Source of the DNA: a bacterium
GTDB lineage: Bacteria; Patescibacteriota; Microgenomatia; Woykebacterales; RBG-16-39-9b
Length of the DNA stretch: 64,000 nt
Direction: 5' to 3'
Assembly (NCBI GenBank): GCA_030704665.1
Contig: JAUYID010000009.1
Location: 256,832-320,831, forward strand
Made by a program: the position numbers and the translations under genes. This document shows positions 4,631-4,858 of this stretch, in pieces. The first letter of the stretch is position 1; each line of letters starts with the position of its first letter. The notes below the pieces were generated by a model, which made no database searches, was not told where the DNA came from, and worked only from the letters and a program-made list of their open reading frames with translations.

Positions 4631-4817
4631 TGTTAAGTGCTCTAAGCCCCGACTAAGTCGGGGCACAGGATGCTTTAGCATCCTACCACTGAGCCATCCA
4701 GGCCAAAAGCGCTCTAAGTCCAATGGACGCAGAATGCTCTAGCATTCTACCACTGAGCCATGTCGGCGTAAGACTGGCGAGGCGGCAAGCTTTGCTTACC
4801 ACTGAGCCAGCCAGGTG
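4631..4817 (-). repeat. three tandem tRNA-like fragments (5' acceptor + D-arm-like GGCTCAGTGGTA followed by two hairpins, no T-arm)
   Basis: Units at about 4631-4704, 4707-4768 and 4769-4817 each contain TACCACTGAGCCA on the plus strand. Unit 2 shares its first 16 nt (GCCGACATGGCTCAG) with tRNA-Thr(GGT). None has a GGTTCGA T-arm. Confidence 0.4.
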
Positions 4818-4828
4818 AATCGAGGATG

Positions 4829-4858
4829 AATTATAGCAAAGAGTTTTGTTTGCGGCAA
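4829..4858 (-). promoter_or_regulatory. candidate sigma70-like promoter for the tRNA operon (TTGCCG-17-TATAAT on minus strand)
   Basis: Reverse complement reads TTGCCGCAAACAAAACTCTTTGCTATAAT upstream of the tRNA-like units and tRNAs. Confidence 0.35.

What the first reader, a model, noticed from the sequence alone, without database searches (positions are those of the whole stretch)
4631..4858. Three tandem tRNA-like pseudo-units in the leader of the Thr-Tyr-Thr tRNA operon
Downstream of a good TTGCCG-17-TATAAT promoter on the minus strand, and before tRNA-Thr(GGT), lie three ~60-70 nt units.

Each starts like a tRNA (7-nt acceptor-like, then GGCTCAGTGGTA D-arm). Instead of anticodon and T arms, each continues with two short hairpins ending in CTTAGAGC. 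Unit 2 shares its first 16 nt with tRNA-Thr(GGT).

They would be co-transcribed with the tRNAs. Possibilities are scars of serial integration events at this tRNA locus, decayed tRNA duplicates, or processed small RNAs using the tRNA 5' end as an RNase P handle.
Basis: seen in the sequence. Interest (0 to 1): 0.55.

Follow-up and report, generated by a model that had tools for sequence, protein, structure and literature searches.

The report
Decayed tRNA-Thr gene pieces in leader
The three "pseudo-units" are real but are broken, hairpin-rich leftovers of threonine-tRNA gene copies sitting between the promoter and the working tRNA gene of a tiny-genome (Patescibacteria) bacterium, with matching 3' leftovers further downstream; this is a variant of a known kind of genomic debris, though one piece is conserved across genera and could influence tRNA processing.

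Summary
On the minus strand, a sigma-70-type promoter (4858-4830) is followed by three units (U1 4816-4772, U2 4767-4705, U3 4703-4637). Each opens with a tRNA-Thr(GGT)-like acceptor strand plus GGCTCAGTGGTA, and the genuine tRNA-Thr(GGT) follows at 4617-4543.

No tRNA finder or Rfam model calls the units, even at relaxed thresholds. Only U2 and U3 have the "two hairpins + CTTAGAGC" layout. U1 is a single two-tier hairpin.

New findings:
- The units are mosaics of tRNA-Thr(GGT) segments (positions 1-21, then 20-27) interrupted by short inverted repeats.
- Matching 3' fragments lie downstream. One (4508-4473) has TCCAGGC-T-CCA, perfectly complementary to U3's GCCTGGA. The other (4196-4174) repeats the real tRNA's 3' end plus trailer.
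- Relatives carry 0, 1 or 3 such units. U1 and the promoter are orthologous in L023/L024. An unrelated-sequence unit of U2/U3 architecture precedes tRNA-Thr(GGT) in a Daviesbacteria genome (L013).
- No integrase or mobile element lies nearby.

Best reading: decayed partial duplicates of the tRNA gene, co-transcribed and discarded as leader. A cis role through an alternative acceptor helix is not excluded. Interest is modest.

The parts
4830..4858 (-). Sigma-70-type promoter: -35 TTGCCG (4858-4853), 17-nt spacer, extended -10 TGcTATAAT (4838-4830)
   Evidence: 10/12 matches, TG present. The -10 and the first ~14 transcribed nt are conserved in L023/L024.
4772..4816 (-). U1: tRNA-Thr-like 5' strand (ACCTGGC TG GCTCAGTGGTA) folded into a two-tier hairpin (outer stem GGCUGGC/GCCAGUC, inner stem GUGGUAAGC/GCUUGCCGC)
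   Evidence: Fold -25.8 kcal/mol, z = -4.2. Orthologous unit at L023 4836-4877 and in L024. The outer pair changes C-G to A-U and an inner pair changes U-G to U-A.
4705..4767 (-). U2: tRNA-Thr(GGT) positions 1-21 (GCCGACA acceptor strand, identical to the resident tRNA), two hairpins, then TTAGAGCGC (D-stem 3' strand plus positions 26-27), then TTTT
   Evidence: 22/22 identity to the L023 tRNA-Thr(GGT) 5' end; 20/22 to the window tRNA.
4637..4703 (-). U3: tRNA-Thr(GGT)-like positions 1-21 with a GCCTGGA acceptor strand, hairpins GGAUGC/GCAUCC and GCCCCGAC/GUCGGGGC, then TTAGAGCAC
   Evidence: z = -3.8; 20/21 identity to the 5' end of the intact L017 tRNA-Thr(GGT). U2 and U3 hairpin 1 differ by one compensatory pair (A-U to G-C), one G-C to G-U change and one loop base.
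4618..4636 (-). 19-nt A/T-rich spacer (TTAACAATTTTCAATGTTT) between U3 and the genuine tRNA
4543..4617 (-). Genuine tRNA-Thr(GGT), CCA encoded
   Evidence: (RF00005, 65.6 bits).
4473..4537 (-). 3' fragment #1. Bases 4508-4473 align to tRNA-Thr(GGT) positions 37-76 and end in TCCAGGC-T-CCA, a perfect complement of U3's GCCTGGA. GTGGGG (4537-4532) pairs with CCCCAC (4489-4484).
   Evidence: (D4); the motif TCCAGGCNCCA appears in 9 of 20000 shuffles of the downstream 507 nt.
4363..4449 (-). tRNA-Tyr(GTA)
4262..4336 (-). tRNA-Thr(TGT)
4174..4196 (-). 3' fragment #2: ATTCCTCTCTCGGCTCCA plus GAAAA. It shares an exact 14-nt run, TCGGCTCCAGAAAA, with the 3' end plus trailer of the genuine tRNA-Thr(GGT). 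It would pair 6/7 with U2's GCCGACA.
3832..4130 (-). Context: rpmG (4130-3963), then tRNA-Trp (3905-3832) with its own promoter (3955-3927)

Best explanation
The three units are decayed, partly deleted and internally rearranged copies of the 5' part of tRNA-Thr(GGT) genes. They arose from local partial duplication and recombination within a rearrangement-prone tRNA cluster of a Patescibacteria (Microgenomates-type) genome. They sit where the tRNA once began relative to its promoter, so they are transcribed as a ~210-nt leader. That leader would be cut off when RNase P cleaves at the 5' end of the genuine tRNA-Thr(GGT), and then degraded.

Shown:
- tRNA ancestry of the units.
- Their non-tRNA status.
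- Matching 3' fragments downstream.
- Variable copy number in relatives.
- Absence of mobile-element genes nearby.

Inferred:
- Co-transcription from the promoter.
- Removal of the leader by RNase P.
- That the long perfect hairpins come from retained tRNA stems, extended by short inverted duplications.
- That U2, U3 and the 3' fragments have no function of their own.

U1, the promoter-proximal hairpin, is older. It is shared with another genus-level lineage and may be kept as a structured leader element.
For: 1. tRNA ancestry. Local alignments of the leader to tRNA-Thr(GGT) of the window and of L023, L013, L014 and L017 exceed the 99% null for all three units (scores 27-44 against 19-22). U2 matches the L023 tRNA 22/22, and U3 matches the L017 tRNA 20/21.
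2. Not tRNAs.
3. 3' fragments. Bases 4508-4473 align to tRNA positions 37-76 and complement U3 perfectly. Bases 4196-4174 repeat 14 nt that span the tRNA 3' end and its trailer, which shows a DNA-level duplication.
4. Acceptor type. GCCTGGA/TCCAGGC is used by an intact tRNA-Thr(GGT) in L017/L018.
5. Relatives.
- L023/L024 have the same promoter and one U1-type unit.
- L033 has one decayed, unstructured unit (z = +0.2).
- L013 has one unit of U2/U3 architecture with unrelated hairpins.
- L015 has 5' pseudo-copies of tRNA-Trp (22/22) and tRNA-Tyr.
- L014, L017 and L018 have none.
- tRNA gene order differs in every lineage.
6. Position. In four lineages the pseudo-5' end starts 9-20 nt after the -10 box, which is where a tRNA would normally start.
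7. No integrase or phage domains were found in the ORFs of window 1-16 kb that were scanned.
8. Partial tRNA genes are a documented, common class in prokaryotes (PMC9897764).
Against: 1. The hairpins are longer and more perfect than tRNA stems (8-9 bp; z about -4 for U1, U3 and the L013 unit). Simple decay should erode pairing, not extend it.
2. All four differences between hairpin 1 of U2 and of U3 preserve the structure.
3. U1 and the initial transcribed region are conserved with L023/L024 (56 invariant of 75 columns), with pair-preserving changes, although the M50 protease next door is only 66% identical.
4. Six of seven sampled lineages of genomes under 1 Mb keep some tRNA piece in a tRNA leader. 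That is a lot for pure junk.
5. The acceptor strand of the unit matches the resident tRNA in L023, L013 and window U2, although acceptor stems differ between lineages. Either recent origin or selection could explain this.
6. There is no transcript evidence at all.
Confidence: 0.6

Rival explanations
1. The units are a functional cis-acting leader. The tRNA-like 5' strand of a unit pairs with the 3' acceptor strand of the genuine tRNA (U2, and the L023 and L013 units) or of a downstream 3' fragment (U3 with 4483-4477). This would form an alternative or nested acceptor helix that delays, orders or gates RNase P and 3'-end processing. It would be a tRNA-operon analogue of rRNA leader-trailer stems, or of a built-in external guide sequence.
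For: - The MFE of 4705-4470 closes GCCUGGA/UCCAGGC around the real tRNA (-100.3 kcal/mol, z = -3.5).
- With the pairing enforced, ensembles with the decoy:3'-strand helix are as stable as, or more stable than, those with the true acceptor: ddG -3.0 (L023), -2.8 (L013) and -0.4 (window U2) kcal/mol. Pair probabilities are 0.91 and 0.67 for the decoy.
- The acceptor strand of the unit matches the resident tRNA in three lineages with different acceptor stems.
- The 3' fragments end in NCCA.
- U1 is conserved.
Against: - Nearest-neighbour folding ignores tRNA tertiary structure and co-transcriptional folding, and both favour the true acceptor.
- Window U1 (ACCTGGC) no longer matches the resident tRNA.
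- L033's unit is decayed and unstructured.
- L014 and L017/L018 manage without any unit.
- U2, U3 and both 3' fragments are absent from the closest syntenic relatives L023/L024 and L033.
- Identity of a unit's strand with its neighbour is trivially expected after a recent duplication.
Confidence: 0.17
2. The units and 3' fragments are att-site scars. Integrative elements repeatedly recombined inside tRNA-Thr genes, in the D loop or anticodon region, each supplying a replacement part of the gene. The elements were later lost by deletion.
For: - Partial tRNA copies are the usual footprint of integration (PMC9897764).
- U2, U3 and the L013 unit all break at tRNA position 27/28, and fragment #1 starts at position ~37. 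These breakpoints flank the anticodon arm, a classic crossover site (own knowledge; Williams 2002).
- The stretch just upstream of the promoter carries different genes in every relative, and in the window it holds a GC 0.63 ORF.
Against: - Nothing but tRNA genes or 0-150 nt lies between matching halves.
- The variable cargo lies upstream of the promoter, outside the repeats.
- No integrase was found within 16 kb.
- Most fragments are 5' parts, which integration rarely duplicates.
- Viral-contig scans for the 5' 20-mers and the unit motifs gave only an unrelated high-GC prophage next to a tRNA-Thr(CGT).
Confidence: 0.13
3. The units are cut out as discrete small RNAs that act in trans, for example as sponges or regulators, like spacer-derived RNAs of other tRNA operons.
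For: Each unit folds into a compact, stable structure. Spacer-derived regulators exist in E. coli (3'ETS-leuZ; own knowledge).
Against: - There is no conserved single-stranded seed.
- The unit sequences are unrelated between L013 and the window.
- There are no RNase P-type determinants at the unit boundaries.
- Nothing else in the 64-kb window resembles the hairpins or their complements.
- No expression data exist.
Confidence: 0.05
4. The units are transcription attenuators (terminator-like hairpins plus a U run) that tune read-through into the tRNA genes.
For: U2 and the L013 unit end in GAGCRC-UUUU directly after a closing stem.
Against: The terminator scan finds no site on the minus strand between 4860 and 4618. 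The U runs are 4 nt long and are separated from the GC-rich hairpins. U1 and U3 have no U run.
Confidence: 0.04
5. The units are real but unusual tRNAs, either intron-containing or armless.
For: Acceptor-like and D-arm-like starts. Patescibacteria do carry introns in tRNA genes (PMC13011429).
Against: - There is no anticodon arm with a 7-nt loop, no T arm and no local 3' acceptor strand.
- ARAGORN finds nothing in standard, relaxed, intron or mitochondrial modes, and Rfam finds nothing.
- The known Patescibacteria introns are group I ribozymes at position 35/36, whereas the inserts here are 8-40 nt long.
Confidence: 0.01

Closest known systems
Partial tRNA genes ('tRNA gene fragments') of prokaryotic genomes, usually left by integration of mobile elements (van der Gulik et al. 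2023, PMC9897764)
   Same: Short direct repeats of part of a nearby intact tRNA gene. They are not functional tRNAs and they mark past rearrangement.
   Different: - Here most fragments are 5' parts.
- They are stacked in tandem inside the leader, 0-150 nt from the gene.
- They have matching 3' parts in a nested order.
- They carry added hairpins.
- No mobile element lies between or beside them.
E. coli tyrT locus: tandem 178-bp repeats after tRNA-Tyr, each carrying the last 19 nt of the tRNA (own knowledge: Egan & Landy 1978; Rossi et al. 1981)
   Same: Tandem partial copies of a tRNA gene inside its own transcription unit, explained by unequal recombination.
   Different: The tyrT repeats are 3' parts in the trailer. 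Here the copies are 5' parts in the leader, they are much more diverged from one another, and they occur in a genome of about 0.94 Mb.
tRNA-like processing signals (plant mitochondrial t-elements; mascRNA/menRNA, Rfam RF01684) and external guide sequences for RNase P
   Same: U3 plus the 3' fragment at 4508-4473 could form an acceptor helix with a 3' UCCA. That is the feature such elements present to RNase P and RNase Z.
   Different: - U1 and U2 have no T-arm mimic.
- Rfam gives no hit in the units.
- The only weak mascRNA hit lies on the real tRNA.
- Cleavage is untested.
rRNA operon leader-trailer processing stems (RNase III)
   Same: Long-range pairing between sequence upstream and sequence downstream of a stable RNA gene within one transcript.
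   Different: Here the helix is 7 bp, tRNA-derived and found in one genome only. rRNA stems are long and conserved.
[quoted passage not shown] 2026, PMC13011429)
   Same: Same phylum, and interrupted tRNA-like sequences that standard tools miss.
   Different: Those introns are ribozymes of about 200 nt or more, at anticodon position 35/36 of functional tRNA-Asn and tRNA-Asp. Here the inserts are short inverted repeats in the D-loop region of non-functional fragments, and Rfam finds no intron.

Membership tests
Canonical tRNA gene (Rfam RF00005) | Cloverleaf detected by covariance model or tRNA finder | tested here: not met
   No call in 4637-4816 by ARAGORN (relaxed, intron and mitochondrial modes) or by Rfam at gathering score or E<=10.
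Canonical tRNA gene (Rfam RF00005) | Anticodon arm with a 7-nt loop, and a T arm with a GTTCRANYC-type loop | tested here: not met
   The hairpins have 3-4-nt loops and no T-loop motif.
Canonical tRNA gene (Rfam RF00005) | 3' acceptor strand complementary to the 5' strand, followed by discriminator and CCA | tested here: inconclusive
   Absent locally in U1 and U2. For U3 it is present only 153 nt beyond the spacer, on the far side of another tRNA.
tRNA gene fragment / tRNA pseudogene | Significant sequence similarity to part of an intact tRNA gene of the same or a related genome | tested here: met
   (scores 27-44 against a 99% null of 19-22).
tRNA gene fragment / tRNA pseudogene | Presence and copy number vary among related genomes | tested here: met
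   3 units (window), 1 (L023/L024, L033, L013), 0 (L014, L017/L018).
Integration (att) scar of a mobile element | Mobile element with an integrase gene between or next to the fragment and the intact gene | tested here: not met
   Only tRNA genes or 0-150 nt lie between the repeats. Pfam finds no integrase or recombinase in the 15 ORFs scanned across window 1-16 kb.
Integration (att) scar of a mobile element | The duplicated part is the segment supplied by attP, normally the 3' part of the tRNA | tested here: inconclusive
   Two 3' fragments fit this. The three leader units are 5' parts and do not.
Integration (att) scar of a mobile element | A matching attP in a phage or plasmid | tested here: not met
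   The viral-contig scans gave one unrelated prophage-flanking tRNA-Thr(CGT) and otherwise nothing. Plasmid and genome collections were not searched for this.
tRNA-like processing element (t-element / mascRNA type) | Acceptor-stem plus T-arm mimic that RNase P or RNase Z cleaves | not testable with these tools
   Structure prediction gives an acceptor-like helix only for U3 plus 4483-4477. Cleavage needs an experiment.
Intrinsic terminator / attenuator | GC-rich hairpin directly followed by a U tract | tested here: not met
   No minus-strand site in 4618-4860.
Group I intron-containing tRNA (Patescibacteria type) | Group I ribozyme inserted in the anticodon loop | tested here: not met
   No intron family hit in the window. 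The inserts are 8-40 nt.

The most novel reading that the evidence does not exclude
In Microgenomates-type Patescibacteria, tRNA operon leaders may keep a copy of the tRNA's own 5' acceptor/D strand as a working part. It would pair with the tRNA's 3' acceptor strand, or with a downstream NCCA-ended fragment, to form an alternative or nested acceptor helix. That helix would control the order or efficiency of RNase P and 3'-end processing of the polycistronic precursor. This would be a self-encoded 'external guide' or folding switch for tRNA maturation.
Probability: 0.12. Interest if true: 0.65.

Novelty: new variant of a known kind. Interest (0 to 1): 0.33.

Why it matters
As debris, the locus is mainly a caution for annotation and a record of how tRNA clusters rearrange in very small genomes. 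It holds partial duplications, gene-order shuffling and replacement of one tRNA-Thr(GGT) type by another.

It would matter more if the promoter-proximal tRNA-derived hairpin (U1) and the decoy-to-3'-strand pairing prove functional. That would be a new way for a bacterium with a reduced RNase set to control tRNA maturation using pieces of the tRNA gene itself. It can be tested directly with a transcript of about 360 nt and RNase P.

Tried and rejected
1. Collection scans for the motif. The genome-contig scan for GGCTCAGTGGTAGNATGC gave 11 single, unrelated hits, so the window's genome is not in that collection. The metagenome-contig scan for TGGCTCAGTGGN{25,55}AGAGCRCTTTTG gave two chance hits in coding DNA.

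2. Exact-protein look-ups of rpmG and M50 homologues (12 of 12 used) gave the seven informative lineages. Several contigs ended before the tRNA cluster (L001, L016, L019, L022, L025-L032).

3. 'Hairpins lock the decoy strand so it cannot interfere with tRNA folding' is rejected. Shuffling the hairpin region leaves the predicted decoy:3'-strand pairing unchanged (0.89 against 0.91 in L023; 0.60 against 0.67 in the window).

4. Dispersed repeat or MITE origin of the hairpins is rejected. There are no other copies in the 64-kb window.

5. The other D-arm-like 13-mers at 7138, 46753 and 59546 lie in coding or unrelated sequence and are chance hits.

6. A 3' remnant after tRNA-Trp (..CGCCCCTGCCA, about 3770-3755) was suspected by eye. 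It did not pass the alignment threshold and is not claimed.

7. A T-stem reading of fragment #1 with a 43-nt insertion was replaced by the better-supported alignment of 4508-4473 to tRNA positions 37-76.

8. Literature searches found no description of such leader units.

Full report
**Where we are**

The window comes from a Patescibacteria (CPR) bacterium of the Microgenomates type.
- Its L33 protein is 100% identical to one from an NCBI 'MAG: bacterium' contig of 938 kb. The nearest named relatives are Daviesbacteria and 'Patescibacteria group'.
- The neighbouring M50 protease is at most 66% identical to anything else, and the nearest named hits are Woykebacteria.

On the minus strand the order is as follows:

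| Feature | Coordinates |
|---|---|
| Promoter | 4858-4830 |
| Leader | 4829-4618 |
| tRNA-Thr(GGT) | 4617-4543 |
| tRNA-Tyr | 4449-4363 |
| tRNA-Thr(TGT) | 4336-4262 |
| rpmG | 4130-3963 |
| Second promoter | 3955-3927 |
| tRNA-Trp | 3905-3832 |

**The observation**

The three units are real.
- U1 is 4816-4772, U2 is 4767-4705 and U3 is 4703-4637.
- Each begins with a 7-nt acceptor-like strand (ACCTGGC, GCCGACA, GCCTGGA), then TG, then GCTCAGTGGTA(A/G).
- The D-arm 13-mer is strongly over-represented: 9 matches against 0.81 expected.
- The leader as a whole is unusually structured (-89.5 kcal/mol, z = -4.9).
- No tool calls the units tRNAs or any Rfam family, even with lax settings.

- Only U2 and U3 have two hairpins followed by CTTAGAGC. 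U1 is a single two-tier hairpin.
- U2 shares 15 contiguous bases, or 20 of 22, with the resident tRNA.
- The GAGC of CTTAGAGC is the 3' strand of the D stem, and it is followed by tRNA positions 26-27 (GC in U2, as in the resident tRNA; AC in U3, as in the tRNAs of L013 and L014).
- U2 and U3 are therefore tRNA positions 1-27 with 30-40 nt inserted in the D loop.

**What the units are made of**

All three units align to tRNA-Thr(GGT) of this genome and of relatives above the 99% null.
- U2 is 22/22 identical to the 5' end of the L023 tRNA.
- U3 is 20/21 identical to the 5' end of the L017 tRNA, which has the same acceptor stem, GCCTGGA/TCCAGGC.

By eye, the 3' strand of hairpin 1 in U2 and U3 (GCATTC, GCATCC) continues a second TA(G/A)AGCA, which is the D-stem 3' strand and the bases after it. 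The 5' strand of that hairpin is a short inverted copy of it. The hairpins therefore look like tRNA sequence plus small inverted duplications rather than foreign DNA. This is direct reading and is an inference.

The hairpin sequences occur nowhere else in the window.

**Matching 3' pieces (new)**

Two 3' fragments lie downstream.
- Fragment #1 lies just after the genuine tRNA-Thr(GGT). Bases 4508-4473 align to tRNA positions 37-76 and end in TCCAGGC-T-CCA. That is the perfect partner of U3's GCCTGGA, followed by the discriminator and CCA. The motif appears in 9 of 20000 shuffles of the downstream sequence. The minimum-energy fold of 4705-4470 closes this helix around the real tRNA.
- Fragment #2 lies after tRNA-Thr(TGT). 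Bases 4196-4174 repeat an exact 14-nt run, TCGGCTCCAGAAAA, that spans the 3' end of the genuine tRNA-Thr(GGT) and five bases of its trailer. This shows that DNA, not mature tRNA, was copied.

The order is therefore nested: U2 [ U3 [ tRNA-Thr(GGT) ] fragment #1, tRNA-Tyr, tRNA-Thr(TGT) ] fragment #2.

**Relatives**

Seven lineages could be fetched.

| Locus | Similarity to window | tRNA cluster and leader |
|---|---|---|
| L023/L024 | M50 66% id | Orthologous promoter (TTGCTATAAT) and initial transcribed sequence. One unit of U1 type, 20/20 identical to its resident tRNA's 5' end. Then Thr(GGT), Thr(TGT), Tyr, rpmG, Trp. |
| L033/L034 | M50 58% id | A decayed tRNA-like start (GCCGATATAGTTTAGTAG) at the same place after the promoter, but unstructured (z = +0.2). 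Followed by Thr(TGT), Tyr, Thr(GGT). |
| L013 (Ca. Daviesbacteria) | L33 67% id | One unit directly before its tRNA-Thr(GGT): 18/18 identical start, two unrelated hairpins, GAGCAC, TTTT. This is the U2/U3 architecture (z = -4.3). |
| L015 | L33 78% id | 5' pseudo-copies of tRNA-Trp (22/22) and tRNA-Tyr about 100-116 nt upstream of those genes. |
| L014 | not recorded | No 5' unit, but an exact 13-nt copy of the anticodon region in the leader. |
| L017/L018 | not recorded | No unit. |

Window U1 and the L023 unit share the hairpin. One outer pair changes from C-G to A-U and one inner pair from U-G to U-A.

Two further patterns hold across the set.
- tRNA gene order differs in every lineage.
- In the four lineages with a leader unit, the pseudo-5' end begins 9-20 nt after the -10 box, which is where a tRNA normally starts.

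**No mobile element**

- ORFs across window 1-16 kb are housekeeping or unknown, and none has an integrase or phage domain.
- The region is syntenic with relatives (def-fmt, L28, M50, MreB and others).
- The exception is the slot just upstream of the promoter. It holds different genes in each genome, and in the window a GC 0.63 ORF without family.
- Viral-contig scans gave no att-like partner.

**Interpretation**

The simplest account that fits all of this is local, repeated partial duplication and recombination among tRNA-Thr genes in a rearrangement-prone cluster. The copies then decayed and now lie between the promoter and the working gene.

They should be transcribed as a leader and discarded when RNase P cuts at 4617. 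This is inferred from general knowledge of bacterial tRNA operon processing (for example PMC7049720, listed but not read). I give this account 0.6.

Several points keep it from being higher.
- The stems are long and perfect.
- The differences between U2 and U3 preserve pairing.
- U1 is conserved with L023/L024.
- Such pieces are frequent in genomes under 1 Mb.

Templated 'quasi-palindrome' mutation could perfect hairpins without selection (own knowledge, untested here).

**A functional reading that is not excluded**

In RNAfold ensembles the unit's acceptor strand competes well with the true 5' strand for the tRNA's 3' acceptor strand.

| Case | ddG (decoy minus true), kcal/mol | Decoy pair probability |
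|---|---|---|
| L023 | -3.0 | 0.91 |
| L013 | -2.8 | not obtained (strand index error) |
| Window U2 | -0.4 | 0.67 |

For comparison, the tRNAs folded alone give an acceptor-stem probability of 0.97-0.99.

U3 also pairs with fragment #1. This could amount to a built-in processing switch or guide. The energy model ignores tertiary structure and folding order, so I rate this reading 0.12-0.17.

The idea that the hairpins merely insulate the decoy strand was tested and failed.

**Comparison with known systems**

- The closest class is partial tRNA genes (PMC9897764).
- The closest single example is the tandem 3' repeats of the E. coli tyrT locus (own knowledge).
- The differences here are 5' parts, leader position, nesting with 3' partners, added hairpins and no mobile element.
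- The units are not tRNAs, not intron-containing tRNAs of the Patescibacteria type (PMC13011429), and not terminators.

**Verdict**

The feature is real and was correctly spotted. It is best filed as a new variant of tRNA-gene fragments or pseudogenes. Interest is modest (0.33), with a low-probability but testable functional reading.

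Noticed in passing
L004 3755-3880 and 4195-4340 (uncultured Christensenella, CASFWW010000009.1); also L009 425-541: tRNA-Gly(GCC)-like copies carry a conserved ~60-nt insert where the T arm should be. They flank intact tRNA-Gly and tRNA-Cys genes, and a partial tRNA-Cys copy is also present. Nested tRNA fragments therefore also occur in Firmicutes.
   Followed up: partly
window 4940-6030: The slot between the M50 protease gene and the tRNA promoter holds a GC 0.63 ORF (5029-5592, minus strand, 187 aa, no Pfam hit) with its own terminator hairpin at 4963-5000. 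Every relative has different genes at this position, so it is a hypervariable insertion site.
   Followed up: partly
window 4630-4640 (minus strand): GCACTTAACAA at the U3/spacer junction resembles the E. coli rrn antitermination boxA, GCTCTTTAACAA. This is from memory only. No rRNA operon is in the window to compare with, and the motif is not seen in L023 or L013.
   Followed up: no
L014 2516-2528: The leader of the tRNA operon contains an exact 13-nt copy (CACTTGTTTTGTA) of positions 25-37 of the tRNA-Thr(TGT) that starts 25 nt downstream.
   Followed up: no
L015 345-372 (minus strand) and 466-520 (plus strand): There are 5' pseudo-copies of tRNA-Tyr (26/30) and tRNA-Trp (22/22) about 100-116 nt upstream of the intact genes. 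The Trp copy folds as a closed mini tRNA-like hairpin.
   Followed up: partly
window 3745-3831 (minus strand): Downstream of tRNA-Trp lie two hairpins and ..CCTCCGACCGCCCCTGCCA, which is reminiscent of the tRNA-Trp 3' end (CCTCCGGGCCTGCCA). The resemblance is below the alignment threshold, so it is not claimed.
   Followed up: partly
L001 (Logan SRR13727534 contig, same organism): The 16.7-kb contig of the same organism ends inside the tRNA cluster, about 190 nt upstream of rpmG. The repeated tRNA pieces probably break short-read assemblies at this point.
   Followed up: no
window 6702-7172: The ribosomal protein L28 ORF is 156 aa, with a long Lys/Glu-rich C-terminal tail. In relatives it is 81-121 aa.
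   Followed up: no
window 260-3830: Three genes (GAF-domain protein, SH3-domain protein, and an asparaginase at GC 0.55) sit between tRNA-Trp and secE. Relatives have other genes there.
   Followed up: no
L003 1937-2040 ('Methanobrevibacter' MAG contig CAYPJH010000011.1): The sequence looks like a mammalian tRNA-derived SINE (GGGGCTGGGG..GGCTCAGTGGTAGAATGCTTGCCTAGCATG..A-rich tail), so it is probably host contamination in the MAG. Identification is from memory.
   Followed up: no
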